Shown piece by piece: positions 1 through 42,229 of a DNA stretch of 64,000 nucleotides. The stretch spans positions 1 to 64,000 of the forward strand of contig CAWEXU010000017.1 in the NCBI GenBank assembly GCA_963813075.1, read 5' to 3'. The DNA is from Methanotrichaceae archaeon. Its GTDB lineage: Archaea > Halobacteriota > Methanosarcinia > Methanotrichales > Methanotrichaceae. Every line of letters starts with the position of its first letter. Within the stretch, counting starts at the first letter, position 1. Below the pieces are notes generated by a model that made no database searches, had not been told where the DNA came from, and worked only from the letters and a program-made list of their open reading frames with translations. A program made the position numbers and the translations under genes.

Positions 1-1019
1 GCACCAAAGCCGAGGTCTTGAGGAGCCTTGCCGCTGCAGGCTGCGCCTTCGCCGAGGCTCTTATGCGCTACAGGCATCTCTCCTACAATCTGCTGTTTCT
101 GAACAAATGGCTGGAGAGGATTCATCCTCTGGACGGCAGGGTCCACCCTCAGTACTTCCAGATTCCCGCCTCAACCGGACGAATCAGCTCCCGCCATCCC
201 AATGCTCAGCAGATCCCCCGCCGGGGAGAGGATGCCCCAGCCATAAGGGGGCTGTTTCGCCCGGCGGCAGGAAAGAGGTTTGTCAAGGCCGACTTATCCA
301 ATATCGAGCTGCGCATAATGGCCCGTATTTCCGGGGATGAGGCGATGCAGCAGGCCTTTATAAACGGCGTCGACCTGCACCGGCTGACTGCTTCCCGGAT
401 CAGCGGAACTCCCCTGGAAGAGGTGACGGATTCGCAGAGGCAGGCGGCCAAGGCCATGAACTTCCTGCTCATCTACGGCGGATCGGCCAGGACGCTGCAG
501 TGGCGCATCCTCTCCGACTATGGGGAGTTCATCTGCCTGGATGAGGCGGAAGAGCGCATGGAGAAGTTCTTCTGCAGCTATCCGGGAATAAGGGAGTGGC
601 AGAAGAGGCAGCTATCTGAGATGAGCTACACTGCACAGCACCACTTCCATAATTGCGTGCGGGGATTCTTCTCGTTGCCGCTGACAGCCACCAGAACGGT
701 CCTCGGGCGGAGGCGGATCTGGCCGCGCTTTGGGGCAGGGATCACCGCCAGCAAGTTCCAGATGTACAATACCCCCTGCCAGGGGACGGGCGCAGATCTG
801 ATCAAGCTGGTGATGGCCGAGGTCTATGAGAAGCTGTTGGATGAGGAGGCGAGGATGATAGGCTCCATCCACGATGAGATCATCCTGGAGGTTCCGGAGG
901 ATCGAGCGGAGGAGTATGCAGCAAGGCTGAAGGAGATCATGGAGAGGATAGGGTCCCAGATGCTCTATCCCGTGCCGGTGAAGGCGGAGGCGAGGGTGAT
1001 GAGAACTTTAGCGGAATGA
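1..1019 (+). CDS. polA: Family A DNA polymerase, C-terminal polymerase domain (5' end lies left of the window)
   Basis: TGRISSRHPNAQQIP, motif A KADLSNIELR, motif B RQAAKAMNFLLIYG, NTPCQGTGAD and motif C IHDEII. The frame is open back to position 3 (TKAEVL). Confidence 0.93.
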   Translation, partial: TKAEVLRSLAAAGCAFAEALMRYRHLSYNLLFLNKWLERIHPLDGRVHPQYFQIPASTGRISSRHPNAQQIPRRGEDAPAIRGLFRPAAGKRFVKADLSNIELRIMARISGDEAMQQAFINGVDLHRLTASRISGTPLEEVTDSQRQAAKAMNFLLIYGGSARTLQWRILSDYGEFICLDEAEERMEKFFCSYPGIREWQKRQLSEMSYTAQHHFHNCVRGFFSLPLTATRTVLGRRRIWPRFGAGITASKFQMYNTPCQGTGADLIKLVMAEVYEKLLDEEARMIGSIHDEIILEVPEDRAEEYAARLKEIMERIGSQMLYPVPVKAEARVMRTLAE

Positions 1020-1024
1020 TCCGG

Positions 1025-1032
1025 TTTTTTTT
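1025..1032 (+). terminator. Oligo-T tract, probable archaeal terminator of polA
   Basis: T8 run 5 nt after the polA stop codon. Confidence 0.45.
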
Positions 1033-1199
1033 GAGGGCTGTATTCGCTGCGTCGATGGTTTTGGATTGTGATATATTAAAGAGAAAAATTCGCCAGGCGG
1101 GTGCGGTGAAAAGTTTGAACTGCTTTTTGATGGGGCTCGAAGGATATCGAATTTTAGCATAGTTGATTTCTCGAATCCAGGCTGTTATCAAGGCTAAAA

Positions 1200-1330
1200 T
1201 TGATCTACACAGACTATTTTTTTAGTGCACGCCGCGAGTCGGGCCTCCGGCCCTCCCGCGCTAATGCCCTGGTCCCCCTCAACGCCGGGGAGGCTTGGAT
1301 ACAATCGAAGCTGGCCGTTGATGGTTTTAG
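1200..1330 (-). repeat. Dispersed structured non-coding element, copy 1
   Basis: Shares the 30-nt core cccctcaacgccggggWggcttggatacaa (1275-1304) and a flanking hairpin with the copies at 6083-6268 and 7845-8038. Confidence 0.85.
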
Positions 1331-1446
1331 ACGCAACAATACGAATATTATTTGTATGTAGAATGAAAAAGCAGCACGGGATTCGTGTAAGGAGAGATTG
1401 GTCCAATATTTTTATAATTTGAATAGTATTCGCCAGGCGGGCCGGG

Positions 1447-2577
1447 GCCACTTCTTTTCAGAAATGGATAGAGATAGTAAGTGGAATGCTGGCCAGGAGC
1501 TGCGGGTTTCAATGGAGCCACTTCTTTTCAGAAATGGATAGAGACAGAGTGCCGTTACAGATGACTGCTGCAGACATGACGCGTTTCAATGGAGCCACTT
1601 CTTTTCAGAAATGGATAGGCTTAAAGGCACGTAGACGACGCTATAGCCATCAATGAGTTTCAATGGAGCCACTTCTTTTCAGAAATGGATAGGTCAGCGG
1701 TAACGCGCATAGTCTAGACAGAGATGCCAATGAGCGTTTCAATGGAGCCACTTCTTTTCAGAAATGGATAGGATTCAGACTGCAGATCGTATCAGTAACG
1801 AAGCCAATGAAGCGTTTCAATGGAGCCACTTCTTTTCAGAAATGGATAGCTGCTGAGATGACATTCGGGCCATGCATTGCCAGATGAAGTTTCAATGGAG
1901 CCACTTCTTTTCAGAAATGGATAGAGATCTGTAGACTGGCATCTGATCGACAGTGCAACGGCGTTTCAATGGAGCCACTTCTTTTCAGAAATGGATAGAC
2001 GATATGCAGCGATGAGCCTGCGGCTGAATGGCATGGTTTCAATGGAGCCACTTCTTTTCAGAAATGGATAGGCTGATGACGCTGTGGAGCTAGAATAGAT
2101 GCATGAGCGTTTCAATGGAGCCACTTCTTTTCAGAAATGGATAGGTTGAGAAGTCTTCGACATGATGCTTTAAGTCAAGAGTATGTTTCAATGGAGCCAC
2201 TTCTTTTCAGAAATGGATAGGGTCATCGAGTCAAGGATAGCGACATCGGGTTTCAATGGAGCCACTTCTTTTCAGAAATGGATAGATCGATTTGGCAGGC
2301 ATGAATGACTGGCGTTTCAATGGAGCCACTTCTTTTCAGAAATGGATAGATAGCAATGTGTGAGCCGACTCTACGAGTCTTTCGACGGGTTTCAATGGAG
2401 CCACTTCTTTTCAGAAATGGATAGTCGGATTGTGAAGGCAGACTCATACCATAAGCAATGCGCAGTTTCAATGGAGCCACTTCTTTTCAGAAATGGATAG
2501 ACTGGACCAGTTGCGAATGACGAACTGGCAATGATACGTAGGTTTCAATGGAGCCACTTCTTTTCAGAAATGGATAG
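1447..2577 (-). CRISPR. CRISPR array: 15 full 36-bp repeats plus 1 truncated trailer repeat, 15 spacers of 28-43 bp
   Basis: Identical gtttcaatggagccacttcttttcagaaatggatag at 1506, 1583, 1657, 1736, 1814, 1889, 1963, 2036, 2109, 2185, 2250, 2314, 2389, 2465 and 2542, with a partial copy at 1447-1471. The minus-strand repeat ends ATTGAAAC and the leader lies on the cas2 side. Confidence 0.98.
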
Positions 2578-2830
2578 AGCAACCATTTTTTGGCCGTTGC
2601 TGTTATCGAAATAACGCCGTTAAGCGCGGATCGACCTAACTGCCAAGTATTTTTCAGATTTAAGCGTTTTTATTAAACTCTAATTCGCTATGCACAGCTT
2701 TAGCGCGGATCGTCGATACTCTTTATATTTTTTATAATTGTGCGTATGTCATCACAGGAGTTTTCGTAATACTGGCCTTATATAGCCTATGTACCTCCCG
2801 GATCCACCTGAATCTTTGCATGCTATCATT
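2578..2830 (-). promoter_or_regulatory. CRISPR leader
   Basis: AT-rich non-coding stretch between cas2 and the first repeat. It contains the 11-bp direct repeat agcgcggatcg at 2623 and 2702. Confidence 0.75.
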
Positions 2831-3124
2831 CTATAATAATTTTCCGGTCCTACTTGCTCCCTATGGACCCCGAGAAATTCAATTCTCTCCATGACTCTGC
2901 CTTCGTTTGGACCAAGATCTATAATCATTATTCGATCCTCATCCGGATTTATCAGATCTGTGAGAGACTGCTACCATCTCCACCCGACCTCTCGGGGTGA
3001 GATCGCAGCGAAAGACTGAGTAGTGGACCGGCTCTCCAAAACCTTTCATGGCCCTATGAACCCTGCAAAGCCTCTTTTGCTCCCTGATATCGTAGCTGAC
3101 TATATAGCAGTTCAAGCTGCTCAT
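2831..3124 (-). CDS. cas2: CRISPR-associated endoribonuclease Cas2 (one frameshift near 2960)
   Basis: MSSLNCYIVSYDIREQKRLCRVHRAMKGFGEPVHYSVFRCDL, continuing in another frame as EDRIMIIDLGP...IEFLG to TAG at 2831. Confidence 0.9.
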
Positions 3125-3131
3125 GTTCAGA

Positions 3132-4858
3132 TCACCTGATGACGAATGCCGGATATTCTTTAGCTCACCTGAAAGAACCCTGGATAGCAGCCTGGCCTGC
3201 ACCTCAAGCACTCTGCGATAGCTTATTTTATAGCCAAAAATGGGATGAACGATCTCCGTCTGCATTCTCTGCTCGTAGCCAGCAACTACCTTTCGTTTTG
3301 CCTCCGGCGTCAATGATATCCCGATGCCGGTCCTGATGAAATCCTTATCCGTCAGCTCTTTTTTGTTAAATAGCGTAAATGCCGTGGAATCGGCAATTAC
3401 TGGCCGGAATTCCTCCATCATGTCCAGAGCCAGAGCCGGGCGGCCATACCTGGGCTGATGATAGAAACCGAGATAGGGTTCAAAGCCTGCTGCCAGAACG
3501 GTGGAGAAGAGCTCCTTGGCCAGAATGCCGTAAAGATAGGAGAGAGTCGAGTTCACTGGATCCCGAGGTGGCCTCTTGTTTCGTCCCTCGAAGGTAGAAT
3601 GTCCCTTCTGCCACCTTGAGCAAGCTGCCGAATCTGGAGAAATAGGCTGATGCTGCCGCACCCTCGATTCCCAGAAGGCTTTGCGGTTAGAGGCATTTTC
3701 AGCCTCCTTCGCGAGAGACGGCCAGAGATTCCAGCACCTTCTCGGGCACATCGGAATCGTATCTGCGCAATCGAACTCTGCAGTTCTCGATCTTCGCCGG
3801 ATACGAATCTTGCGGGAAATGGAAAGCGACTTCTCTTCGTCCTCTGCCCAACTGAAACTGCTTGATGCGCAAAAGCACATTCTTGTGGCTCATCCCCAGA
3901 GCGATGCCCTGAAACCAGCCGCCGTGGGAGAAGTGCAGCACAGGCACATTCCTCTGCATCAGCTCGACCATGGCGGGAGTTGTGATCTCCGCGTCGCCGT
4001 AGAGGCAGACCTTGGAGATCTCCCTGATTCTGGCCTCGCTGATCTTGCCCTCATCATAGGACCAGACCTCCAGCCGCTCGCCCCTCTTGCGAACCGTCTT
4101 CCCCTGGCCGACAACATAAAGCAGGAACCTGATCGTCCCGGCTGGCAAGGAGCATTCTGATCTTCTCCTCCGGTTTGCCTTCCTGGTTCTCTTCCTGATC
4201 CCTTCTGTTTGGCTCTTTCTCCGCCTCCATCTCTCGCAAGAGGTTGACCTCGTCGGGCAGGCATATCCCGGCCATTGAGCAGCGATCGCACCTTTGGCTA
4301 TTCTGCAGAGGCGGGGGAAGCTCGCCCCGCTGAACCGTCCTTCGCATGTCTGCCAGCAGCGCCATTGTTCGGTCCAGAAGTTGACGAGTCGAACTTCACC
4401 GGCACTCTTTCCTGGGATCGAATATAGTAGACCATCCCTTCATCGCAGGAAAAGCCGTTCTCCCGCAGGGCAAGGCACTGGGCTGCCAGCTGGATCAGAT
4501 GAGGCTCGAAGATCCCTGGCCCTGCCTGGCCTTTTCGCGCCTCCCCGCGCTTGTACTCTATCGGCGTGACCTGGCTGCCATCCCCCTCCAGAAGGTCGAT
4601 CCGGCAGCATACTCCCGCCTGCGGAGCGGAGAGGGAGACGGATCGGGCATGAAAGGGCTGGAAGTCCTCCGGGATGGCATCCTGCTCTGCATCTATCCAG
4701 CGGTGAAGGTAGCGCCCTTCTACGGTCTCGGCGCTATCCTGGAATTCACCCTGCACCCATTGAAGATAGCTGAGCCGGGGGCAATAGGCATAAGCGGCGA
4801 GCATGCTGGCTGGTATGAGCTCGGGGGCGGTGATCTTACTGGGTTCTTCGTCTGCCAA
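3132..4858 (-). CDS. cas1: Cas4-Cas1 fusion (type I-G-like architecture), broken by about 6-7 frameshifts
   Basis: Cas4: YAYCPR, RIDLL..PIEYKRG, CDRCSMAGICLPDE. Cas1: LYVVGQGKTVRKRGERL, GIEG, RNKRPPRDPVNSTLSYLY, GFYHQPRYGRPALALDMMEEFRP, HPIFGYKISYRR, ending YPAFVIR*. Confidence 0.9.
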
Positions 4859-4977
4859 CTTTGTGGCCTCCTGTCAAGATAATGAGGATTGCATCCTAGA
4901 TAAATATGTTTAACTGTTTGACCTGGCCGGAAGTTGGCATTTAGCAGCAGGACTGCACTCTGCTCTGGCCCGACGGG

Positions 4978-5009
4978 CATATAAATATAATAGTATTCTC
5001 CGGTGGGGC
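4978..5009 (-). promoter_or_regulatory. Repeated promoter motif upstream of cas4-cas1
   Basis: Minus strand reads CCACCGGAGAATACTA-TTATA-TTTATAT. Related motifs occur at ~1070-1101, 1410-1441, 5950-5985, 6212-6246 and 7984-8020. Confidence 0.55.
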
Positions 5010-5105
5010 AGGATATGACAGCTCCCAGAAGATTCCGCCAGCGGTATCTCGACTGGCTAACATTTTTATATCTTTCTCAGCGCATTCGGATAGATGATGA
5101 GGTAG

Positions 5106-5851
5106 GTGAGTGCATTGGATGAAAAAAGAAATGAGCCTGTGAAGAAAACCATCGATGACCTGGGCCCTACACTGTCCAGGCTGAGATGGTGGAAGAAGAT
5201 CTGGCATGTTTTGATCTATGCCATCGGTCATCAGAAGCTGCGGATCGGTATTATGACCGTGTTTATCTGCTTGTGGCATTAGGAGCCTTTTTCTGGAGTG
5301 AGCTGCAGCTTCCATCTGTCTCTCAAGATACACCGGAGGGCATCATCGAATGGCTGCTGAACGCCCAGACCATTCTGGGCATGGGCACCCTTCTGGTTGC
5401 CCTCTTCGTCTGGATAGGGGAGATAGAAAAGAACTGGGAGGAGAGCCTGCCAAAGCGGCTCAGCGTCTTTTTCTTCTGGGAGGGAAAGCCCCTGATCGTC
5501 TGCCGCTATGTCTGGCTGGCCGGAGCAGATGAGATCAGAATCTGGGGGCAGCAGGTGGCAGTGCAGGCTCAGGAGGTCATGCCTGAAAAGAAGCCTCAGG
5601 ACTCATTTCTTCATTTCGAACCGGACATGCAGACGAGGAGCCCTGAGCATCTCATTGCGCCCAGAGGCGGGGTCTGGAAGCACTATTCGATATGCTTTAA
5701 GCTGACCGACCTGAACACGAGCCTGAGAAGGACAAAAGAATACTGCAGATATCAGAACGTGGCGGGAACTGATAAAGCGGCCGGCAATTTCCCCATCGAT
5801 CTGGTGGAATCAATCCCAGAGGTCTCCAGATGGAAGGAGGGCATGATTTGA
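5106..5851 (+). CDS. Hypothetical membrane protein (about 2 N-terminal TM helices plus a soluble C-terminal domain); frameshift near 5267
   Basis: GTG at 5106 after GAGGT reads MSALDEKRNEPVKK...LRIGIMTVFI and joins the ORF 5186..5851 frame (LLVALGAFFW...ILGMGTLLVALFVWIG...LPKRLSVFF...EIRIWGQQ). Confidence 0.7.
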
Positions 5852-6022
5852 ATAAGGCATCTTTGGATTGATAGCATTCCAGCGCTCTCGCAGGTTGCGC
5901 CGCACTGCCCTGGTGGTGAGCAGCAGAATTGCAGCCTGGCCCCAGCGGGCTATAAAATGATTAGTATTCTCCAGGCAGGCCAGGCCTCACACATCTGTCT
6001 GCCTAATGGTATTGATGCACTA

Positions 6023-6080
6023 TTATCGCCCTTCTGACCGCTTCACATCCACCACCTGGCCCATCGACCACTTTTGGTTG
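6023..6080 (-). pseudogene. csx3: csx3 C-terminal remnant
   Basis: Reads NQKWSMGQVVDVKRSEGR*, matching SQKWQVGQVVDV of the 6290-6572 copy. Confidence 0.7.
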
Positions 6081-6082
6081 TT

Positions 6083-6268
6083 GGAGTTTGATCTATTCAT
6101 GCGAGCTGCTTTTCAGCGGGCGCCGCGCGCGGTGATACGCGCGGTAGTGCCCTGGTCCCCTCAACGCCGGGGTGGCTTGGATACAAACGGGGCAAAGCCG
6201 TTGTGGTTCTGGATTATATCACGGTTAATATTCCCCAGGCGGGCCCAGTTTGAACTGCTGGCTTGCCC
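6083..6268 (-). repeat. Dispersed structured non-coding element with promoter motif, copy 2
   Basis: Core at 6157-6186; tttgatctattcatgcgagctg is identical to copy 3; cgcgcg/cgcgcg hairpin. Confidence 0.85.
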
Positions 6269-6289
6269 TGCAAATCAAGCTGCATCACC

Positions 6290-6572
6290 CTACTTTCTCC
6301 GTACCGGCAGGGTCACATCCACTACCTGGCCCACCTGCCACTTCTGGCTATGCGTGGCCACCACCACCGCCCCCAGGCGGGGATCGTAGAAGGCGATGGC
6401 AGCGGCGGGGGAAGCATGCAGCAGGTGCAGTGCCATGCCGTATCGCCAGATGGGAGCGCGTCCTTCGATGATAACCAAAGAGCCACGGGGGATGTCGGGC
6501 AGTGGCGGGAGCGGCTCGGCTGGGGTGATGGGGGGAGGAGACGGCGATGGAGTAGATGATGAGGGCGGTCAA
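6290..6572 (-). CDS. csx3: CRISPR-associated protein Csx3 (Crn3 ring nuclease family), copy A; +1 frameshift in the G-run near 6530
   Basis: Joined protein: MTALIIYSIAVSSPITPAEPLPPLPDIPRGSLVIIEGRAPIWRYGMALHLLHASPAAAIAFYDPRLGAVVVATHSQKWQVGQVVDV. GRxPIW, HxxH and YDPRLGAVVV.SH are Csx3 signatures. Confidence 0.88.
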
Positions 6573-6581
6573 TTTTCTAGC

Positions 6582-6869
6582 CTAAGCTTTTTCCTCTGGG
6601 AGAACGAAGGTGTCCACCAGACCGGTAATTACCTCCTCCACAAGGTTAGATACAGTCCTTCTTCTTTGTAGGGCAAGTTTTTCCAGTTTGGAGAAGGCAG
6701 GTTCCGGCAGCTCAACAAGCACCCGGCATAGTCTCTGATCCTTTTCGAACGTCTTCCAGCGAGCTTCAGAGTTCTCTGCATCCTGGATCGCTTCAGCGGC
6801 TGAAAGCACCTCTTCTTCCGGCTCATGTGGTGCATACTTTTTTTTCATTTCATGGCCTCTTTCCGACAT
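6582..6869 (-). CDS. Putative antitoxin, ribbon-helix-helix/CopG-like
   Basis: Small protein with RVLVELPEPAFSKLEKLALQRRRTVSNLVEEVI, directly downstream of a PIN gene. Confidence 0.6.
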   Translation of the reverse strand: MSERGHEMKKKYAPHEPEEEVLSAAEAIQDAENSEARWKTFEKDQRLCRVLVELPEPAFSKLEKLALQRRRTVSNLVEEVITGLVDTFVLPEEKA

Positions 6870-7425
6870 CCTTCAAACTTCATATATTTCATTTATCAAC
6901 TTGGTGGAGTAATGGGTCCCCTGTCTTTGGCACTCAGTCCAGTGCAACCAGCACATCCTCTGGCTCGATAATTTGTTGCCAGCAAGCCCGAACCAGGATG
7001 CCAGGAAATCCAATGATGGGTACTCTTCTTCGATTGGCAACATCTCTTGCAGCCAGTTCGTCGATGAGCAAGCTCAACAGCCGGGGAGCTTCTTCTCAGC
7101 ATTAGGACAATGGCAAAGGACTCAGGGAGGTGGTGATCAGGATTTTTGTCCCTTGTTGCTTGATGGTTTGCAATCTCTGAAGCGATGACCTTGCAGCTTC
7201 AGTTTCTACAGGCGTGAAATCCTGGTGGACTACAGATAAACCCGGATCTCTAAGAGATCGCTGATCTCATGATCTGCACCATGCTTCTGGTATTCATGAA
7301 ATCTCGTCCACCGGTATATGAATCTGGTCGTAGAACTGAAGCAGTATATGCATGCAATCAGATTGCAGCGCTGAAATCAGCGGACCGGTATTGCTTACGA
7401 CAATTCTTGGGCTCGCGTGCATCAT
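6850..7425 (-). pseudogene. PIN-domain (DUF3368-like) toxin gene with several frameshifts
   Basis: ATG at 7425 gives MMHASPRIVVSNTGPLISALQ..HIPVDE; a later frame gives LLIDELAARDVANRRRVPIIGFPGILVRA. Not assembled in the ORF track. Confidence 0.7.
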
Positions 7426-7469
7426 AGTGCTCTTAAATAAATTTTGCATATCTTCCTATAAAAAATCAT

Positions 7470-7822
7470 TCATTGCTGATTTAAGGGATTGATCATTATA
7501 AAAAATATCTCCGTCGCCGGAGGGCCCCCCAGAGGATGGCTCGTTCCACATTCCGCGGGTGGCGTCACATCCACCACCTGGCCCATCTGCCACACCGGGC
7601 TATGCGGGCACCACCACCGCCCCCAGGCGAGGATCGTAGAAGGCGATGGCTGCGGCGCGGGAAGCATGCAGCAGGTGCAGTGCCATGCCGTATCTCCATA
7701 TTGGTGCCCGATCCTCGACAATGACCAAAGAGCTCGCGCGGGATAAAAGGCAAAGGCGGGAGCGGCTCGGCTGGGTTGATGGGCGAGGAGACGGCGATGG
7801 AGTAGATGATGAGGGAAATCAT
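7470..7822 (-). pseudogene. csx3: Csx3 copy B, two frameshifts (near 7733 and 7606)
   Basis: MISLIIYSIAVSSPINPAEPLPPLP.. / LVIVEDRAPIWRYGMALHLLHASRAAAIAFYDPRLGAVVV / HSPVWQMGQVVDV. The DNA closely duplicates 6312-6565. Confidence 0.82.
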
Positions 7823-7844
7823 TTTTTCCAGGCCTGATTCATTG

Positions 7845-8038
7845 GGAATTTGATCTATTCATGCGAGCTGTTTTTCAGTGGGCACCGCGAGTCGGCCTGC
7901 TGGCCTCCCGCGCTATGCTCTGGGGCCCCTCAACGCCGGGGTGGCTTGGATACAATCGAGGCAAAGCCGTCGATTGGTTCTGTATTATAAAAAGACTAAT
8001 ATTCTACACGTAGGCCCGGTTGAATGGCGTGCTTGCCC
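7845..8038 (-). repeat. Dispersed structured non-coding element with promoter motif, copy 3 (upstream of csx3 copy B)
   Basis: Core at 7926-7955; minus-strand TTTTTATAA box near 7985-7993. Confidence 0.85.
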
Positions 8039-8163
8039 ACACTCGAAAATCTCCCTCCTTTAGCACATGTAGCATCACATCCACCCCTCAGAATTTCCTC
8101 CTCTATATTCGACGGTTATCTTTAAGTTAATTGACGATCGCCATTGACCGCGGTGAGTAAGAC

Positions 8164-8807
8164 ATGATAAGGATACTCGGCATTCTGGCTCTTCTGTCCA
8201 TCCTGGCCCTGCCCGGCAGCGCTCAGGATTATCTTGAGGGCGGAAATGTAGGACCCTATACAGGCGACGCGGGCCAGTACTTCACAGACCCCATATTCAT
8301 GATGAAGGTCGGCGGCGGCACATCATGTGCCACCCAGCAGCGTTCAGGCATCTAAACCCGTCTCCCCCCTGGGCTCGACTGTGGGCAAGACCACAATGGG
8401 AAGATACAGCGCATCCAACACCCCGGTGGCAAAAACCTTCTCCAGCGCTCCGGTGACTCAGCCGCAAACCCCAGCCGCAATCCAGCCAGCCACTTCAACT
8501 GGCGTACTCAGGAAAGTGGATCCTCCAGCTCTCTGAGGGCCAGACCATCTCCCTGGACCTGCATCAATCCGGAAACAGGCTCTTTGGCCGGGGGAGCTTC
8601 ACCTATAGCAGCACCACCCAGATGGCCCTGGCCAGCGGAACCATATCCGGCAACAGCATAACCTTGGACATCCTGCCTGAGAGCGGAACTGAGCTTTATA
8701 CCCTATCGATTGATACCAGCAGATTGAATGTGCCCTCCAAGTACACCGCTTACCGCTACGGAGCCCTTACCGGGTACGGAACAGTCATCGCCAGCAAGAT
8801 TGGCTAA
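8164..8807 (+). CDS. Secreted hypothetical protein (one gene split by frameshifts into three ORFs)
   Basis: Signal peptide [20 protein letters not shown]; successive ORFs at 8164, 8327 and 8622 continue one S/T-rich beta protein. Confidence 0.6.
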
Positions 8808-8824
8808 ATATAATATAATGTAAT

Positions 8825-11809
8825 ATGAAATCAATTGTAATCAAAGGTGCCCGCGAGCACAACCTGAAAAACATCGACGTAAAGCTACCCCGTGACAGCC
8901 TGATCGTCATCACCGGCGTCTCGGGCTCGGGCAAATCCACCCTGGCCTTCGATACCATCTACGCCGAGGGCCAGCGCCGCTATGTGGAATCCCTCTCCGC
9001 CTACGCCCGCCAGTTCTTAGGCCAGATGGACAAGCCCGACGTGGACTCCATCGACGGTCTCTCCCCTGCCATCTCCATCGAGCAGAAGACCACCTCCAAA
9101 AATCCCCGCAGCACTGTGGGAACGGTGACCGAGATCTACGACTACCTCCGCCTGCTCTTTGCCAGAATAGGCGTCCCTCACTGCCCGGAGCACGGAACGC
9201 GCATCGAGTCACAGTCTCCGGAAAGGATCGCCGTCAGCATCCTGGAGGAGATGAAAGAGAAACAGAAGGAAAAGGAGAAGGAGACTGAAAAGGGGAAGGT
9301 AAAGGGGAAGGTAAAGGAGAAGGGAAAGGAGATGGAGGAGAGTGAGGATGAGAGCATGATCACCATCCTCGCTCCGGTCATCCGCCAGAAGAAGGGAACC
9401 TATGGCCAATTGCTCAAGGACCTGAACGCCGAGGGCTTCGCCCGGGTTAGGCTGAACGGCCAGATCCAGAGGACGGACGAGGAGATCGATCTTGACCGCT
9501 ACAAGAAGCATGACATCGATGTGGTCATAGACCGTCTGGACCCAAGAGATGATAAGTCCCGCCTGGTGGAGGCGATCGAAAAAGCCCTGAAGAAGACCGA
9601 AGGCCTGGTCTATGTCCTGCATGAGAACGGAGAGGACCGGGTCTACTCCGCCCGGATGGCCTGCCCCGTCTGCGGCCTGGTCTTCGAGGAGCTTCAGCCG
9701 CGCATGTTCTCTTTCAACAGCCCCTTTGGGGCCTGCGAGTCCTGCAACGGCCTGGGATTCAGAATGGAGTTCGACCCTGAACTGATCATACCGGATAATG
9801 ATCGATGCGTCGCCGACGGGGCTGTCGCCTTATACCGCAATATCATCGACGGTTGGCGGGGCCAGCACCTGGCAGCAGTGGCCAAACACTTCGGCTTCGA
9901 TATATTCACACCCATCAAGGACCTCACCTCTGAGCAGTACGATGCCCTGATGTACGGCTCGACGGAGAAGATCCGCATGAATATGAGCATGAAAAACGGG
10001 GACGTCTACTGGTCGCATAACTCCCAGTGGGAGGGGCTGATACCGCAGAGCATCCGCCTCTACGGCCAGACCGCCTCCGAGTACCGCCGGGAGGAGCTGG
10101 AGAAGTTCATGCGGGTCCTTCCCTGTCCGGCCTGCAAGGGCAAAAGGCTGAAGGAGAAGGTCCTGGCGGTCAGGATCCTGGATCTTTCTATTGTGGATGT
10201 GGCCAATCTCTCGGTGAGCGACTGCAATGATTTCTTCCTGAATTTGGATGAGAAGCTGTCGGTCAAGGAGAGAGAGATCGCCCGCCAGATCCTGAAGGAG
10301 ATCCGCTCCCGCCTGGGATTTTTAGAGCACGTGGGCCTGGGGTATCTGACTCTTTCCAGAAACGCCGGCACCCTCTCCGGAGGGGAGGCGCAGCGCATCC
10401 GTCTGGCCACCCAGATAGGCTCAAACCTCACCGGCGTCCTCTACGTCCTGGACGAGCCTTCCATCGGCCTGCACCAGCGGGACAACTCCCGGCTGATAGA
10501 GACCCTGAAAAAGCTCAGGGATCTGGGAAACACCCTGATTGTGGTCGAGCATGACGAGGATACCATCCGCAATGCCGATCATGTGCTGGATATCGGTCCG
10601 GGGGCGGGCATTCACGGCGGCTATGTGGTGGCCGAGGGCACCCCGGAGGAGATCGAGGCCGATCCGAAGTCCCTGACCGGCCAGTACCTCTCCGGCAAAA
10701 AGAGAATCGAGGTCCCGGCAAAGAGGAGAAAGGGCAATAAGTTCATCCATCTTTCCGGCTGCCGGGAGAACAACCTCAAGGATATCGATGTAGACATTCC
10801 TCTGGGGGTCCTGACTGTGGTCACCGGGGTCTCGGGATCAGGCAAGTCCACCCTGATCTATGATACCCTCTACCGGGCGCTGATGAAGAGGATCTACCAC
10901 TCCAGCGAGACTCCGGGAGAGCACGACGGGATTCGTTTTGACACTGAGGTGGACAAGGTGATCGTCATCGACCAGAGCCCCATCGGCAGAACGCCTCGCT
11001 CGAATCCGGCCACCTACACCAAGGTCTTCGATCCCATCCGCCAGGCCTATGCCGGGACCAAGGAGGCGAGGGTTCGGGGCTACAAGAGCGGTCGCTTCTC
11101 TTTCAATGTCCAGGGCGGCCGGTGCGAGAGCTGCCACGGAGACGGCCTGATCAAGATCGAGATGAACTTTCTGCCTGATGTCTATATCGATTGCGAGGAG
11201 TGCAAAGGCAGCCGCTACAACCAGGAGACCCTGGAGGTCAAGTACAAAGGAAAGTCCATCGCCGAGGCCCTGGATATGACAGTTGAGGAGGCCAGAGAGC
11301 ACTTCGAGAATATCCCGGCCATAAGAACAAAGCTTGACACCCTGCTGGGAGTGGGTCTGGGTTACATCAAGCTGGGCCAGAGCTCGACCACCCTCTCCGG
11401 GGGCGAGGCCCAGAGGATCAAGCTTACCCGTGAGCTGGCCAAGAGGGGCACAGGCAGGACGGTTTACCTCTTAGACGAGCCGACCACCGGACTGCATTTT
11501 GATGATGTGAAGAAACTGATCCATGTCCTGGACGACCTGGTGGCCAAGGGGAACACCGTGGTGGTGATAGAGCACAACCTGGATGTAATCAAGTCCGCAG
11601 ACTACCTCATCGATATGGGGCCGGAAGGAGGAAACGCCGGCGGGCAGGTGGTGGCCACCGGCACCCCGGAGGAGGTGGCCAGGGTGGACGGGAGCCATAC
11701 CGGTCAATTCCTGAGAGAGAGGCTCAAGATTCAGGCTCAGTCGATCCATTCGTCCCGGCCAGCCATCCCCAACGGTCGGAAAAAGGCGGCGTGTGAGGCG
11801 AAGGTCTGA
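8825..11809 (+). CDS. uvrA: Excinuclease ABC subunit A
   Basis: [12 protein letters not shown], two [11 protein letters not shown]alker A motifs, LSGGEAQRI signatures and zinc fingers. Confidence 0.98.
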
Positions 11810-16053: not shown

Positions 16054-18534
16054 TCAGTGTGACCTGCACCTGCCTTTAGCCAGAGCATAATACGCCAGTG
16101 ATATGGCCGCCAAATGCTGCCAGGAGAGAAAGCCGGGCAGTGGCGGTCTCTCCTCTCCTGCATCGGGCAGCGATCCTGCCGGAGGCTCCCTGGGAGTCAG
16201 GGTTATATTCATGCTCAGGGGCTCGGATACCTGCTCTGAGATATCGATCTCTCCCTGATAGATCTCATAGCCGCTCAGAAATAGGTCAAAGGTATGATTT
16301 CCGTAGCGACTGAGCTTTATTCTGTCCGGCGTGCTCTTGCCAGTATTCTCTCCATTCAGCCATATCGATGCCCCATCTGGATTCGAACTCAGAATTACAT
16401 ATAGATCTGAGATCCTCTGATCTGAGATATTTTGATTTGATATCCTCTGATCTGAGATGACTTCGATATTCTGTGCATCACTTTCAGCTTTCTGCTGCTG
16501 CTGTTCTGGCGTCAGCTCCAACCTTATGGCGGTGGAGCTTGTCACATATATCGTCTCTTTCAGAGGCTCGTATCCCTTCAGGAACAGCTCAATATCGTGA
16601 TATCCCTTTCCATCCAGAGTTCTCTCGCTGGGAGTCACTGCCCGGGTAGGTTTGCCATCGATCCAGATCTCCGCTCCACCGGGCTCAGACTCGATTTTTA
16701 TCCGCAGATTGGGGGAGGCATCCCTGGAAGTGCTCCTGGCCTGGGTGCTCGATGCTAAGGCAGCAGAAGAGGAAGGGTGAACGAATGTGGTCTCCGTTCC
16801 GGCCAGGAGAGTCTCTATATCTTCATGAGATCTGAGGTATACTTCCATCCGTTCAGTCCCTATCTTCTCCCTCCAGATTTGATAATCCAGGATCGATTGG
16901 TTCTCATTTCTCAGGATATCGTATTCGTTATCAATTATATAATTTGTACTTGTAGTTGATAAATTGAGGTCCGATAGATTAACTGCTAATCCGACTCCGT
17001 TATTCTCCAGCCGATTTTCCTCCATCTGGCTGGCATTGGACCGGTTCAGGTAGATTCCGATCTTATTATTGTGGGCAATATTGCGGAAAATTCTGTTGCC
17101 GGAAGAATCTTGAAGGGCAATGGCTGCCGATCGGCTGTCTGCTCTATTCTCTTCCAGGCTATTGTTTCTGGAATTGAGCAATACGATCCCTGCCAGGTTG
17201 TCACTGGCATTGTTGCTTGCGATCAGGTTATCGAGGCCAGACTCGATGAAGATGGCAATCAGATCGTTTTTGCTGACATCATTCTCCCGGAAGGTATTTC
17301 TCGTAGTATCGAAAAGAAAAGCCCCGATCTGGTTATTGCTGGCAGTGTTATTTGCGACTGTGCTATTCGAGAGTTCGATGAGTTCAATCCCGATCTTTTT
17401 ATTATAGAACGCCAGATTATCGCTTACAGTATAGCCATCCGCATTGTCAATGGAGATGCCATCAAGATTGCCGCTGGCATTATTGTCGATCAGTTTGTTG
17501 GCCCTGCCCCGGTTAACCTCGATACCGGTCAGGTTGTTATTTCCCGCCTCGTTCTCCAGCAGTATGCAATCAGTGCACCTGAGTATAGAGAAGCCCCGCC
17601 TCTGATTATTCCAGGCCGCATTTCCGATTATCGCATCTCCAACTGAGCTGTCCAGACTTATGCCATTGTATTTATTGCTCAAAAAGGCGGACCCTATGAC
17701 TGAATTTACCTGGCCGCCTTTCAGGCTGATTCCATCCTCATCATTATAGCTTACATTGCAGCCGGCGATGGTATTTTTGCTGCAGTCTTCTAGATAGATC
17801 CCTTCCCAGCTGTTATGGCTGGCATTGTTCCCTATTAGCGAATTGCCATCGGCTCGCCTCAATTGAATACCATATTTTTGGTTGAAGGAGACTTTATTAT
17901 CTGCCACAGTGCAATTCCTGGCGGCATCCAGGAAGATTCCATAGCTATTATGGCTGGCATTGCAGCCTTCTACGATGCTGTCTGTGGTGTTATGGAGATG
18001 GATGCCGTAATCGTTATTGCTGGCATCAACTCCGATCGCTTTGTTTAGGCTCCCTCCGGATACATATATCCCAGCATCGCCATCTTGAACCGTATTTCCT
18101 TCCAGGATATTATGGCTGGAGTTGAGCACAGCTATTCCATGATTATAATTTTTGATAACATTATTTATTATTAGATTATTATTGGATATTGCCTTAATCC
18201 CTTGTCTTCCTTTTGAGGTTTGATTAGAGCAGTTGATAAAAAATCCATTCAACACCGACCCTCCGGCGGAGAGGTTGACTGCCACTTCATCCTCCCCACT
18301 ATCGATTTCAGGCATTCCAATGCCCAGCAGTAACAGGGTCTTGTTTATGATCAGGCTCTCATTATATATCCCTCCAGATACCAGTATAGTATCGCCAGGG
18401 CGGGCCCCGTCTATTGCTGCCTGGATGCTCTCATTCTGGTCGACAATAAAAGAGGAGCCATGTGCCAGTGCAGGCAGGATTATAGATAAAAGAAGCAATA
18501 TTAATTTATGCCGGATCATGAGAATGTTTATCAT
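16054..18534 (-). CDS. Cell-surface protein: NosD/CASH parallel beta-helix, PEGA domains and PGF-CTERM-like tail
   Basis: SIQAAIDGARPGDTILV, many N..GI.L repeats, IESEPGGAEIWIDG and LSSNPDGASIWLNG, C-terminal LPGF-hydrophobic-basic segment. Confidence 0.85.
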   Translation of the reverse strand: MINILMIRHKLILLLLSIILPALAHGSSFIVDQNESIQAAIDGARPGDTILVSGGIYNESLIINKTLLLLGIGMPEIDSGEDEVAVNLSAGGSVLNGFFINCSNQTSKGRQGIKAISNNNLIINNVIKNYNHGIAVLNSSHNILEGNTVQDGDAGIYVSGGSLNKAIGVDASNNDYGIHLHNTTDSIVEGCNASHNSYGIFLDAARNCTVADNKVSFNQKYGIQLRRADGNSLIGNNASHNSWEGIYLEDCSKNTIAGCNVSYNDEDGISLKGGQVNSVIGSAFLSNKYNGISLDSSVGDAIIGNAAWNNQRRGFSILRCTDCILLENEAGNNNLTGIEVNRGRANKLIDNNASGNLDGISIDNADGYTVSDNLAFYNKKIGIELIELSNSTVANNTASNNQIGAFLFDTTRNTFRENDVSKNDLIAIFIESGLDNLIASNNASDNLAGIVLLNSRNNSLEENRADSRSAAIALQDSSGNRIFRNIAHNNKIGIYLNRSNASQMEENRLENNGVGLAVNLSDLNLSTTSTNYIIDNEYDILRNENQSILDYQIWREKIGTERMEVYLRSHEDIETLLAGTETTFVHPSSSAALASSTQARSTSRDASPNLRIKIESEPGGAEIWIDGKPTRAVTPSERTLDGKGYHDIELFLKGYEPLKETIYVTSSTAIRLELTPEQQQQKAESDAQNIEVISDQRISNQNISDQRISDLYVILSSNPDGASIWLNGENTGKSTPDRIKLSRYGNHTFDLFLSGYEIYQGEIDISEQVSEPLSMNITLTPREPPAGSLPDAGEERPPLPGFLSWQHLAAISLAYYALAKGRCRSH

Positions 18535-18678
18535 ACTCCTAAGTATATATCATTTTCTTTAATATTGGAATAATTAAGTTTAATTGGATATGAAATAGCC
18601 TTTTGCAGTTCGATTTTAGGGAAGCGTATAGATAATGATTAAATATTTTGAAGCTGGATCTCTATAGGGTGTAGTGAT

Positions 18679-19164
18679 ATGTATGGCATCTCAAATAAAT
18701 ACGCAGTCTTAATGCTGCTAGTAACTCTGGCAATGTGCGTCCTTCCGGTACATGGCCAGTATGGCCCGGTATTGGAATCGCCATTTGAAGTCCCCCTATC
18801 TGATGAGGGGGATGATTCAGACGATCAGATGCAGGAAGCGCAAGATATTTTGCAGTCGCCTCTGCAGACTGCCGGTCCCGCAGGATTGGCCGGCAGATCA
18901 CCGGAATCAGGATTGATTGCACAGGGCATCATCAGCTCATTGCGCGCAGACAATGCGGGAAGGCTGTATGTGCATCTGGACACCCGACCAGGTATTCCCT
19001 TCATCCTATCCCTCCAGGGAAGGGATGACGATGAGGACACTTCTGGCACAAGCCAGGGAATGCTCGAGCTGATACTTTATGCCTTCGAGTATGACCGGGA
19101 GGTCGGTATAAGGTATGGGCCGTCCAGCGAGATCATGGAGGTGGCGATAGCAAAGAATTCATGA
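18679..19164 (+). CDS. Secreted hypothetical protein
   Basis: 161-aa ORF with a signal peptide. Confidence 0.6.
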   Translation: MYGISNKYAVLMLLVTLAMCVLPVHGQYGPVLESPFEVPLSDEGDDSDDQMQEAQDILQSPLQTAGPAGLAGRSPESGLIAQGIISSLRADNAGRLYVHLDTRPGIPFILSLQGRDDDEDTSGTSQGMLELILYAFEYDREVGIRYGPSSEIMEVAIAKNS

Positions 19165-19188
19165 AATTATGACTTTCTTTCTTTTCGT

Positions 19189-19497
19189 CTATCTGCCGAG
19201 CCTATGCTTCTCGATCTCTCTTGCCACCCTCATCTCTTCCTCGGTGAGGTCGGGCTCTTTCAGGGAATCTGCCGCATTCTTTATCGCCACTCCTATCATG
19301 ATCCCCTTCAAAAAGGCAGCCCGATCCTCCTCGATGATGGTCTGAAGGACTCTGTTCAGGTACCTTTTAACCGTCGTCCCGGGGATTGACCGGTAGGAGT
19401 TCAACTCATATGTGACCGCAAAAAGCTCGTCCTCTGTGAATCCATAGCTCATTAGAAATGATGACAGATCCTCATTATTATCAGTCATGGATGGCAT
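19189..19497 (-). CDS. Hypothetical protein
   Basis: 102-aa ORF with natural composition, filling the gap between its neighbours. Confidence 0.6.
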   Translation of the reverse strand: MPSMTDNNEDLSSFLMSYGFTEDELFAVTYELNSYRSIPGTTVKRYLNRVLQTIIEEDRAAFLKGIMIGVAIKNAADSLKEPDLTEEEMRVAREIEKHRLGR

Positions 19498-29396: not shown

Positions 29397-29995
29397 AGCT
29401 GGCCAGAAACTCCCGTCGCTGGATATCGGTGCCCATTATCCTGGCCGCAGCCCTGGCCGTTGCCGGGAGCTGGTACATATCGGCTGCCGCTTTTCTGGGT
29501 ATGGTATTCATGATATTCTTTCACCGGGACCCAGATCGCCTGCCGCAGAGCGAGGGCATGCTCTCACCGGCCGACGGAAGGATCATTCAGGCAACTCCGG
29601 AGAAGGTCACCATATTCATGGGCCTCGCCGATGTGCACGTTAACCGGGCGCCAATGGAAGGGACGATAATCAGCGTGGAGCACAGGAAGGGAACTCACCT
29701 CCCCGCCTTTCTCAATCGCGCGAGCCAGAACCAGCAGAGCAGGATGAGAATCGATACCGAGGACGGAGAGATCCAGCTGTGCCAGATCACCGGGACCATC
29801 GTGAGGGAGATCGTCTGTTATGTCAAGCCCGGAGATCACGTCCTCCGGGGGGAGAGGATAGGCATGATCCGCTTTGGCTCGCGGGTGGAGACCAGCATTC
29901 CCAGAGGATATAAGCTGAAAGTGGCCCTGGGAGATAGCGTCCGGGCCGGTAAGACGGTGCTCGCCGTCAAGAGCCATTCAGAGGTCTCTTCATGA
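29393..29995 (+). CDS. psd: Phosphatidylserine/archaetidylserine decarboxylase proenzyme
   Basis: FFHRDPDR, SPADG, DVHVNRAP, GMIRFGSRV. Confidence 0.92.
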   Translation: MKLARNSRRWISVPIILAAALAVAGSWYISAAAFLGMVFMIFFHRDPDRLPQSEGMLSPADGRIIQATPEKVTIFMGLADVHVNRAPMEGTIISVEHRKGTHLPAFLNRASQNQQSRMRIDTEDGEIQLCQITGTIVREIVCYVKPGDHVLRGERIGMIRFGSRVETSIPRGYKLKVALGDSVRAGKTVLAVKSHSEVSS

Positions 29996-30663
29996 ATATC
30001 CTGCGCGCCCTCCGGCCGCCGGACCTGTTCACCATCCTGAATATCGCATTGGGGTTTGCTGCCATCCTCCTCATCAGTGAATCGCAATCCCTGGATAGGG
30101 TTTTGGCCGCCGTCGTCCTGATAATTTTAGCAGCGGTGGCTGACGGCCTGGACGGATTTGTGGCCAGAAAAACGGGATCCGGTCCCCTGGGGGCTAACCT
30201 GGACTCCCTGGCAGACCTGGTGTCCTTTGGAGCAGCGCCTGCCTTTCTCGTTGTTGCTGCCTTTGGCCTCCCCATTCAGATCTGGCTGGCAGCGATATTC
30301 TTTGTCATCTGCGGGGCCCTTCGCCTGGCCAGGTTCAATGTCTCAAACCATAGCGATCAGCTCTTCGAGGGCCTGCCCATCCCTGCGGCGGGCATGGCTC
30401 TATCCGCCAGCGTCCTTTTAGGGCGGCCTGGCCTCACCATTCCGCTCATGCTCATTTTAGCTCTGCTCATGGTAAGCAGCATACCATATCCCAAGATCAG
30501 GGACATAAGAGTTCTGTCTATATTGGGCCTGCTGGTTATTGCTGCCGCCTGGGCGGTCTTTTTCCAGAGCGATATCTTTTATACCGCCATTTTTTTGGGC
30601 GCGCTGATAATCATGTATTTGTTAAGTCCGGTGGTGATTTCACGCCTACAAAAAGGGAAATAG
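29992..30663 (+). CDS. pssA: Archaetidylserine synthase (CDP-alcohol phosphotransferase)
   Basis: ADGLDGFVAR...GANLDSLADLVSFG and LRLARFN. Confidence 0.92.
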   Translation: MNILRALRPPDLFTILNIALGFAAILLISESQSLDRVLAAVVLIILAAVADGLDGFVARKTGSGPLGANLDSLADLVSFGAAPAFLVVAAFGLPIQIWLAAIFFVICGALRLARFNVSNHSDQLFEGLPIPAAGMALSASVLLGRPGLTIPLMLILALLMVSSIPYPKIRDIRVLSILGLLVIAAAWAVFFQSDIFYTAIFLGALIIMYLLSPVVISRLQKGK

Positions 30664-42220: not shown

Positions 42221-42229
42221 AAGTCCACT

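What the first reader, a model, noticed from the sequence alone, without database searches (positions are those of the whole stretch)
1..8090. Candidate new system: family A DNA polymerase, CRISPR array, Cas4-Cas1/Cas2 and duplicated Csx3, with no interference genes
Seen: polA ends about 430 bp from the array trailer. cas2, cas4-cas1, a membrane gene, csx3 copies and a TA pair follow, then ordinary genes. No cas3/5/6/7/8/10 occurs in the window. Known: archaea replicate with PolB/PolD and PolA is sporadic in them. The nucleic-acid polymerases known to partner CRISPR adaptation are RT (RT-Cas1) and primase-polymerases (CAPP). Cas4-Cas1 fusions typify subtype I-G, whereas Csx3 is a type III cA4 ring nuclease. 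Inference: this may be a hybrid adaptation module in which a dedicated PolA fills the repeat gaps after integration or makes prespacer substrates. The polA N-terminus and any effector operon could lie left of the window.
Basis: partly seen in the sequence, partly recalled or inferred. Interest (0 to 1): 0.8.

Follow-up and report, generated by a model that had tools for sequence, protein, structure and literature searches.

The report
CRISPR-tamed DNA polymerase in methanogens
A family of methane-making archaea appears to have twice borrowed a DNA-copying enzyme from mobile elements, disabled its proofreading, and kept it beside the machinery that writes new memories into RNA-targeting CRISPR immune systems.

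Summary
The layout is real, and the polA–CRISPR link is conserved. The window opens at a contig end inside an apicoplast/Aquificae-like PolA. A 15-repeat array, cas2, Cas4g-Cas1g, two csx3 and an RHH/PIN pair follow. Type III effectors lie on other contigs, so this is not an effector-less system. The frameshifts are probably long-read errors.

In Methanotrichaceae two PolA clades are CRISPR-linked: A (this one, 20 of 24 loci) and B (16 of 16). They are not one clade (AU p=1.8e-5). A's sister clade and B's one sister row are mobile-element replicases with a primase-helicase (often an integrase) and intact proofreading. Both CRISPR clades lack the primase-helicase and a complete 3'-5' exonuclease motif set (0 of 64 versus 55 of 55). 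They keep the polymerase motifs under purifying selection. No PolA locus carries a type I-G effector (0 of 39), and PolA-linked spacers show a strand bias that fits RNA targeting.

Best reading: a twice-domesticated accessory polymerase for type III adaptation. No activity or binding is shown. A 'TPR + DNA polA' adaptation module was listed computationally in 2023, so this is a new variant of a known kind.

The parts
3..1019 (+). 3' part (polymerase domain) of a family A DNA polymerase, clade A; 5' part cut off by the contig end
   Evidence: Pfam PF00476 E 6.5e-76; motifs A, B, C intact in the window translation and in relatives; dN/dS 0.11 against the C10 paralogue and L038; clade placement
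1050..1443 (.). Dispersed ~400-450-bp intergenic repeat element; further partial copies at ~6085-6389 and ~7848-8008
   Evidence: 51 nhmmer hits in 22 clusters in the genome; no Rfam match; folding not above mononucleotide shuffles
1444..2577 (-). CRISPR array: partial trailer repeat 1444-1471 plus 15 full 36-nt repeats (1506-2577); transcribed on the minus strand (inferred from the leader side and the ATTGAAAC repeat end)
   Evidence: purine skew +0.158 on the strand opposite the crRNA
2578..2751 (-). AT-rich leader
   Evidence: 82% identical to the leader/cas2 region beside the C10 array; sequence
2752..3124 (-). cas2 (I-G type), frameshifted as assembled
   Evidence: Pfam CRISPR_Cas2 E 9e-9; intact relative L315 best hit PADLOC Cas2g; 6 small indels against L315
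3132..4858 (-). cas4-cas1 fusion (Cas4g/Cas1g), frameshifted as assembled
   Evidence: Pfam Cas4 and Cas1; intact C7 paralogue NCBIfam NF049935 703.7 bits over cut-off 560; about 10 frame-breaking indels but 0 nonsense, 115 synonymous and 64 non-synonymous codons against L315
5106..5851 (+). Membrane protein of no known family that recurs in these loci; frameshifted near 5244-5267
   Evidence: homologues beside the module in relatives; no Pfam, NCBIfam or PADLOC hit; Atlas best score 0.82, a lead only
6290..6572 (-). csx3/Crn3 ring nuclease copy 1 (frameshift in the 5' part)
   Evidence: Pfam PF09620 E 1.2e-19; TIGR02579 62.4 bits over cut-off 55.4
6582..6869 (-). Ribbon-helix-helix antitoxin-like gene
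   Evidence: Pfam RHH_5 E 2.3e-4, under the cut-off
6873..7449 (-). PIN-domain (DUF3368-like) toxin-like gene, in pieces
   Evidence: window 6304-7474 is 79% identical to L294/L316; their intact 190-aa protein scores 0.97 to DUF3368 clusters but has no Pfam hit by hmmscan
7545..7822 (-). csx3 copy 2, frameshifted (ends approximate)
   Evidence: Pfam PF09620 E 1.2e-11; 86% DNA identity to copy 1

Best explanation
The PolA is a domesticated accessory polymerase of a type III CRISPR adaptation module in Methanotrichaceae. Its ancestor was the replicase of integrated mobile elements (tyrosine integrase, primase-helicase, proofreading PolA). On two separate occasions the gene was kept beside a Cas4g-Cas1g/Cas2 module and its array. 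Each time it lost the primase-helicase partner and the catalytic acids of its 3'-5' exonuclease, and kept an active polymerase.

Most likely it does short DNA-templated synthesis for spacer uptake. It would turn single-stranded or ragged DNA pieces into duplex prespacers, which type III systems need because they lack Cas3, and/or resolve the integration intermediate and fill the repeat gaps. Losing the exonuclease would stop it trimming the 3' ends that Cas1 uses and would favour strand displacement.

Shown: linkage, phylogeny, motif states, selection, effector context. Inferred: every biochemical step. In this genome the crRNAs would be used in trans by the Cmr/Csm effectors on other contigs.
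For: Linkage:
- Clade A: 20 of 24 genome loci have cas1/cas2/cas4 within 7 kb or this repeat family within 3 kb (3 short contigs, 1 without). Clade B: 16 of 16. Clade C: 0 of 8. Other rows: 0 of 34.
- Metagenome contigs (partly redundant): A 30 of 45, C 0 of 34.
- Genomes: an A/B polA in 37 of 52 genomes with Cas1g versus 9 of 53 without. 8 of those 9 are broken or fragmentary (hand count).

Two origins: the AU test rejects A+B as one clade, p=1.8e-5. A's sister is C, B's sister is a helicase-PolA fusion beside an integrase.

Primase-helicase directly upstream: C 8 of 8, A 0 of 24, B 0 of 16; in metagenomes C 24 of 34, A 0 of 45.

All three exonuclease motifs: A 0 of 50, B 0 of 14, C 39 of 39, outgroups 16 of 16. 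Polymerase motifs A/B/C intact in the A and B rows; polymerase-domain dN/dS 0.09-0.19 in 13 A/B pairs.

Type III specificity: of 76 Cas1g loci, 0 of 39 with polA have an I-G effector. The 20-row Cas1 clade holding all 8 I-G effector loci has no polA. Clade B travels with its own Cas1 clade, 15 of 18. Spacers look antisense to coding strands in 38 of 39 polA-linked arrays versus 8 of 13 I-G arrays.

Precedent: Pol I polymerase activity is needed for adaptation in E. coli (PMC4678826). CAPPs of type III-A/B bind Cas1 and displace strands (PMC8211822).
Against: - No activity was measured.
- The gene is not obligatory: 15 of 52 Cas1g genomes have no A/B polA found. Three genomes with non-I-G Cas1g lack it (G046, G051, G071), and 14 of 25 genome-derived A-side Cas1 loci have none at the locus.
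- In clade A the gene is convergent with the cas genes, across the array or sometimes with the array upstream, and is not in their operon.
- One genome keeps an intact clade A polA with no Cas1g found (G035/L038, insertion sequences downstream).
- Only 20 of 39 polA loci show a type III gene in the DNA held.
- Many I-G loci are short on one side.
- All counts come from one family of related genomes, so they are not independent. B's sister is a single long branch.
- Spacer skew is also expected from type III selection alone (PMC9048733). It does not differ clearly between polA-linked arrays and other non-I-G arrays (p=0.10).
- The host has its own polymerases for gap filling (recalled).
Confidence: 0.58

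Rival explanations
1. The exonuclease-dead PolA acts as a reverse transcriptase substitute. It copies RNA into DNA so that the type III system takes spacers from transcripts, as RT-Cas1 does.
For: Specific to type III-side Cas1g. True RTs are rare in the family, 9 of 105 genomes, and the own genome has only a weak under-cut-off hit. A neighbour of this PolA subfamily, 3173 Pol, accepts RNA templates (PMC10201439 passages). The newest three spacers are as skewed as older ones (0.101 versus 0.097).
Against: No residue-level mark of RNA-template use was tested. RT-active type III systems are reported to show no general strand bias, and bias arises by counter-selection in RT-free systems (PMC9048733). 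None of 1,639 spacers matched the loci or genome held, so RNA origin could not be examined.
Confidence: 0.14
2. The PolA serves the type III locus in another way, for example repairing host DNA nicked by Cas10-HD or Card1, or maintaining the array. Or it is a selected defence-island passenger with no role in adaptation.
For: Clade A loci are often flanked by csx3, Card1, cmr genes and TA pairs as well as by cas1/cas2. A polA fragment lies next to a cmr operon with no cas1 in view (L073). Gene order varies in clade A.
Against: Clade B sits head-to-head with cas4-cas1, about 80-310 bp away, in 14 of 16 loci and shares a Cas1 clade. polA is mostly decayed in genomes without Cas1g. Two independent arrivals at the same module are hard to explain by chance.
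Confidence: 0.22
3. polA is the replicase of a provirus or integrated element that merely abuts the array.
For: Its closest relatives (clade C) are exactly such replicases. One clade A locus has an integrase 3.1 kb away (L055). The DNA left of the window is not held.
Against: No primase-helicase beside any of 24 A or 16 B loci (22 of 24 A loci have at least 1 kb upstream). Proofreading motifs are lost. Upstream of the 97%-identical C10 paralogue lie csx3 pieces and a HEPN gene pair. Of 80 viral loci, the best segments are only 25-37% identical and none has cas genes.
Confidence: 0.04

Closest known systems
[quoted passage not shown]
   Same: Exonuclease plus polymerase architecture of about 620 aa with no 5'-nuclease. 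Best structural match is apicoplast polymerase, 9qsc, TM 0.82. It groups with Aquificae and Methanomicrobia sequences.
   Different: That paper gives 'unknown role in prokaryotes', about 93% with DxE, and has no occurrence of 'CRISPR' in its text. Clades A and B have lost the exonuclease motifs and sit at CRISPR loci.
CRISPR-associated primase-polymerases (CAPP; PMC8211822; PrimPol cluster in PMC6546367)
   Same: A polymerase encoded beside cas1/cas2 of type III-A/B systems, proposed for adaptation.
   Different: CAPP is an AEP-fold primase-polymerase, operonic, and shown to bind Cas1. This is a family A enzyme with no primase domain, convergent or divergent to the cas genes, with a Cas4g-Cas1g partner.
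RT-Cas1 type III adaptation
   Same: A polymerase of mobile-element origin recruited more than once to type III adaptation modules (repeated recruitment of RT is recalled).
   Different: Different enzyme family, not fused to Cas1, and RNA-template use untested here.
'TPR + DNA polA' adaptation-linked module of Altae-Tran et al. 2023 (PMC10910872; text names UAS-4 and UAS-15 as DNA-polymerase-linked)
   Same: A family A polymerase gene associated with a CRISPR adaptation module by genome mining.
   Different: Listed with a TPR gene. No TPR partner was noticed in the loci read here, though none was searched for systematically. Its host, PolA subfamily and exonuclease state could not be read (SI PDF, Table S1 and Data S2-S4 not readable), so overlap cannot be excluded.
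Type I-G CRISPR-Cas
   Same: Cas4g/Cas1g fusion, Cas2g, related 36-nt repeat, and a stand-alone C-terminal part of Csb2 elsewhere in the genome.
   Different: No Csb1, Cas8g or Cas3 found in this 83%-complete genome. Effectors are type III. True I-G loci in the family form their own Cas1 clade with a different repeat variant and no polA.

Membership tests
Family A DNA polymerase | Motifs A (D..IELR), B (R...K...F..Y) and C (HD) intact | tested here: met
   for A and B rows; window translation; Pfam
Aquificae-like PolA (cluster 8) | Exonuclease plus polymerase domains, no 5'-3' nuclease; nearest structure apicoplast Pol | tested here: met
   on full-length relatives (the window's own 5' part is missing)
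Aquificae-like PolA (cluster 8) | Conserved DxE in the 3'-5' exonuclease | tested here: not met
   DxE in 4 of 50 clade A and 0 of 14 clade B rows; ExoIII aspartate in none; the C10 paralogue also lacks DxE
Aquificae-like PolA (cluster 8) | Assignment by the paper's clustering or CDD cd08639 | not testable with these tools
   CDD not held; best NCBIfam model PRK14975.1-3 scores 363, under its cut-off of 640
Canonical bacterial Pol I | N-terminal 5'-3' exonuclease, about 900 aa | tested here: not met
   intact clade A relatives are 618-717 aa with no such domain; TIGR00593 under cut-off
CAPP | AEP primase-polymerase domain | tested here: not met
   Pfam shows only DNA_pol_A and a decayed exo1 domain
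CRISPR-associated adaptation polymerase (functional class) | Conserved linkage to cas1/cas2 and array | tested here: met
CRISPR-associated adaptation polymerase (functional class) | Binds Cas1/Cas2 or is needed for spacer uptake | not testable with these tools
   needs pull-down and acquisition assays
Type I-G CRISPR-Cas | Cas4g-Cas1g fusion and Cas2g | tested here: met
   NF049935 over cut-off on the C7 paralogue; PADLOC Cas1g and Cas2g on L315
Type I-G CRISPR-Cas | Csb1 (Cas7g), Cas8g and Cas3 effector | tested here: not met
   none found in the own genome (83% complete); the same Csb1 model rings in 20 of 105 relatives; 0 of 39 polA loci carry them
Type III CRISPR-Cas | Cas10 and RAMP effector sharing the repeat family | tested here: met
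   in trans: Cas10 on C7, C13, C27, RAMPs, arrays on C7 and C13 beside them
Integrated mobile element with PolA replicase | Primase-helicase directly upstream and integrase nearby | tested here: not met
   0 of 24 A and 0 of 16 B loci versus 8 of 8 C; the window's own upstream DNA is missing

The most novel reading that the evidence does not exclude
A third class of CRISPR adaptation polymerase, after RT and CAPP: an apicoplast-like PolA domesticated twice from primase-helicase elements with convergent loss of proofreading. It lets an I-G-derived Cas4-Cas1 integrase feed RNA-targeting type III systems, possibly by copying RNA into prespacers in a lineage that almost lacks true RTs.
Probability: 0.2. 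Interest if true: 0.9.

Novelty: new variant of a known kind. Interest (0 to 1): 0.72.

Why it matters
Which polymerase completes CRISPR adaptation in archaea, which lack Pol I (recalled), and how type III systems without Cas3 or RT get prespacers, are open questions. This gives a concrete candidate with built-in controls: proofreading sister enzymes on mobile elements, an independently recruited second clade, and I-G loci without it in the same hosts. It also assigns contexts to a PolA subfamily described as of unknown role in prokaryotes (PMC10201439): element replicase for the proofreading members, CRISPR accessory for the exonuclease-dead ones. It is a clear case of repeated exaptation from mobile elements with a matching active-site change.

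Tried and rejected
- Predicted complex of the Cas1 domain with clade A PolA from L315: no answer, score 0.00 against a mark of 0.32, controls not folded. This is neither support nor evidence against.
- Rfam on window 1-9000: 0 matches. The dispersed element folds no better than mononucleotide shuffles.
- 1,639 spacers against the loci and genome held: no match over 75% of the length. The window's 14 spacers have no self-match beyond chance.
- Sequencing runs: no RNA holder listed, best share 0.24. Laid contigs are related strains only; they lack the extra bases at 4123 and 4387 but cannot settle the other indels.
- Viral contigs: no close relatives.
- The bootstrap tree did not finish, so supports are SH-aLRT only.
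- Cas4 inactivation as a correlate of polA: rejected. The catalytic aspartate is replaced in 9 of 35 A-side rows and intact in window-like, B-linked and I-G rows.
- Membrane protein: no family found.
- 8 of 48 further Cas1g loci and longer flanks of several loci were not obtained, and 3 of the 40 fetched gave no scorable Cas1, so the Cas1 tree covers part of the family's loci.
- Earlier scan findings: none.
- Ten literature searches (listings only) showed no paper on this association. Schoenfeld 2013 is not held.


Full report
OBSERVATION. The window is the start of contig C17 of a 2.7-Mb, 83%-complete genome. The closest named records of the polymerase are Methanothrix/Methanotrichaceae, so I infer that family. 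Bases 3-1019 encode the polymerase domain of a family A DNA polymerase (Pfam E 6.5e-76). A dispersed ~400-bp repeat follows, then a partial repeat at 1444 and 15 full 36-nt repeats to 2577. After these come a leader, cas2 and cas4-cas1 on the minus strand, a membrane gene, csx3, an RHH gene, a PIN-type gene and a second csx3.

FRAMESHIFTS. Most of these genes are frameshifted. Against the intact relative L315, cas4-cas1 shows about 10 frame-breaking indels but 0 nonsense, 115 synonymous and 64 non-synonymous codons. The window's spacers are poor in homopolymers: 0.88 runs per 100 nt, against 2.9-3.0 in this genome's other arrays and 3.7-5.8 in 12 relatives. Long-read error is the likely cause; recent decay is not excluded.

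THE GENOME. A 97%-identical polA lies on C10, again followed by the element and an array trailer. Cas10 occurs on C7, C13 and C27, RAMPs on the same three, and the repeat family on C7, C10 and C13. C7 has an intact Cas4g/Cas1g (703.7 bits, cut-off 560), a Card1-type nuclease, csx3, cmr genes and the C-terminal part of Csb2. No Csb1, Cas8g or Cas3 was found. So the locus is the adaptation half of a type III system with I-G-type adaptation genes. The csx3 'duplication' is one case of 7 csx3 pieces on 4 contigs, mostly next to an element with 51 hits in 22 clusters.

IS THE LINK CONSERVED? The polymerase matched in 46 of 105 genomes of the family. I built a tree of 82 homologues: loci with at least 250 profile positions reaching the C-terminal motifs, duplicates removed, 15 of the non-methanogen rows left out. 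It gives clade A (this gene, 24 rows, SH 99), clade B (16 rows, SH 100), clade C (8 rows, sister to A, including Chloroflexota and Omnitrophota records) and 34 others. Cas1/cas2/cas4 within 7 kb or this repeat within 3 kb: A 20 of 24 (3 short contigs, 1 without), B 16 of 16, C 0 of 8, others 0 of 34. Two outgroup loci and one C locus have unrelated arrays 3-5 kb away. B is head-to-head with cas4-cas1 in 14 of 16. In 79 metagenome loci, partly redundant with each other and with the genomes: A 30 of 45 (5 more with csx3 only, 1 with the membrane gene only, 9 with at most 2.3 kb downstream) and C 0 of 34. L315 has the window's gene order intact. By genome, an A/B gene or fragment occurs in 37 of 52 genomes with Cas1g and 9 of 53 without (relatives are not independent). 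8 of those 9 are broken or fragmentary (hand count).

WHERE IT CAME FROM. Clade C genes lie 223-534 bp downstream of a ~920-aa DUF3854/DUF927 primase-helicase-like gene (8 of 8), with a tyrosine integrase in 4 of 8. B's sister is a D5-helicase-PolA fusion beside an integrase, though it is one long branch. No A (0 of 24) or B (0 of 16) locus has such a primase-helicase; in metagenomes C 24 of 34 and A 0 of 45. The AU test on 33 rows rejects A+B as one clade, p=1.8e-5. Two recruitments are the simplest reading.

WHAT CHANGED. All three 3'-5' exonuclease motifs are present in 39 of 39 C rows and 16 of 16 outgroup rows. They are complete in 0 of 50 A rows (DxE kept in 4) and 0 of 14 B rows (ExoII acid kept in 10). 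The motif columns were set from clade C, whose domain aligns with DEDDy nucleases and Prex. Polymerase motifs are intact in the A and B rows, with dN/dS 0.09-0.19 in 13 pairs and 0.11 for the window gene. The AlphaFold model of L315 PolA (pLDDT 85) matches apicoplast polymerase best (TM 0.82).

WHICH CRISPR TYPE. Of 76 Cas1g loci (39 held earlier, 37 scorable among 40 fetched of 48 further ones), 39 have polA within 8 kb and none of these has an I-G effector. 20 of the 39 show csx3, Card1 or cmr/Cas10 genes in the DNA held. All 8 loci with I-G effector genes fall in one 20-row Cas1 clade (SH 95) with no polA, although many of those contigs are short on one side. All 11 I-G arrays read start with the GCTT repeat variant, against 1 of 30 polA-linked arrays. 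Clade B polA goes with its own Cas1 clade, 15 of 18 (SH 99). Of 35 genomes with a non-I-G Cas1g placed in the tree or read from earlier loci, 32 have an A/B gene or fragment. Spacers are purine-rich on the strand opposite the crRNA, like coding strands, in 38 of 39 polA-linked arrays (mean +0.104) and 8 of 13 I-G arrays (+0.017; p=6e-5). Other non-I-G arrays are also skewed (10 of 10, +0.075). This fits RNA targeting and does not reveal the acquisition mechanism. RT genes are rare in the family, 9 of 105.

MECHANISM (inferred). A non-proofreading polymerase beside a type III-serving integrase most plausibly makes or finishes duplex prespacers and/or resolves and fills the integration intermediate. 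This follows Pol I in E. coli (PMC4678826, passages) and CAPP (PMC8211822, passages). Gap filling alone does not explain why I-G systems in the same hosts lack it, so I lean to substrate preparation. RNA-templated synthesis is possible, since a neighbouring enzyme accepts RNA templates (PMC10201439, passages). Against the best reading: the gene is optional (15 of 52 Cas1g genomes lack it; 14 of 25 genome-derived A-side Cas1 loci have none at the locus), clade A is not operonic with cas1, one genome keeps an intact copy without Cas1g, and nothing was assayed.

LITERATURE. PMC10201439 (passages): subfamily known in Methanomicrobia, role unknown, 'CRISPR' not in the text. PMC10910872 (passages; Table S3 part 1 and searches of 8 held supplements; SI PDF, Table S1 and Data S2-S4 unreadable): DNA-polymerase-linked adaptation modules UAS-4 and UAS-15, and a row 'TPR + DNA polA'. 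PMC6546367 (passages): PrimPol only. bioRxiv 10.1101/270033 (term search): no PolA in the main text; its supplements were not seen. PMC12669027 (passages, 3 of 4 supplements): no PolA. PMC9048733 (passages). Ten searches (listings only) showed no description of this archaeal association, but subscription journals are mostly not covered. The role of Csx3 as a cA4 ring nuclease rests on the NCBIfam name and recall.

VERDICT. A real, conserved and twice-evolved CRISPR-linked polymerase with a convergent active-site change; a new variant of a known kind; function inferred. Interest 0.72.

Noticed in passing
window 1050-1443, 6085-6389, 7848-8008; 22 clusters genome-wide: A dispersed 300-450-bp intergenic repeat (51 hits) that flanks toxin-antitoxin-like pairs, csx3 pieces, small cassettes and array trailers. 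It was seen in few relatives (L038, L039, L068). No Rfam match, no unusual folding. It could be a non-autonomous mobile repeat or a cassette recombination site.
   Followed up: partly
L061, L062, L063, L064, L105, L161, L166, L171: A family of compact integrated elements: tyrosine integrase, HTH, a ~920-aa primase-helicase (DUF3854/DUF927, or DnaG-, NrS-1- or D5-like) and a proofreading PolA. They occur in Methanotrichaceae, other Methanosarcinia and Chloroflexota/Omnitrophota records; L064 also has a terminase gene.
   Followed up: partly
L171:7215-10808: A 1,197-aa D5-helicase-PolA fusion beside an integrase, reminiscent of the apicoplast polyprotein; sister to clade B.
   Followed up: partly
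window 5106-5851; L315:13647-14462: A ~260-290-aa membrane protein of no known family that recurs beside these type III-linked adaptation modules; a candidate new ancillary gene.
   Followed up: partly
L049, L051, L057, L058, L188, L291, L389-L391: A subclade of Cas4g-Cas1g with the Cas4 catalytic aspartate replaced by asparagine. Some of their arrays have longer, more variable spacers (L057 mean 43 nt, sd 4.2).
   Followed up: partly
G000:C7 ~18400-19250, C13 ~42050-42900, C27 ~29600-30300: A stand-alone C-terminal (Cas6-like) half of I-G Csb2 beside each type III effector operon; probably the crRNA-processing nuclease for this repeat.
   Followed up: partly
G000:C10 94992-96479 and C7 518-2005: IS110-family transposase genes (family name recalled from the sequence) inserted inside CRISPR arrays at repeats.
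   Followed up: no
L049:1639-2181: A small membrane-anchored SAVED-domain gene between csx3/RHH and cas4-cas1 in a polA-linked locus (Pfam E 1.1e-6).
   Followed up: no
L071, L072, L075, L076 (clade B C-termini): Clade B polymerases carry a ~20-30-aa basic, amphipathic-looking C-terminal tail absent from clades A and C.
   Followed up: no
window 8825-64000: By inspection, ordinary genes (uvrA, secreted proteases, ABC transporters, citrate-lyase-like and secD/F-like genes); no further cas genes seen.
   Followed up: no
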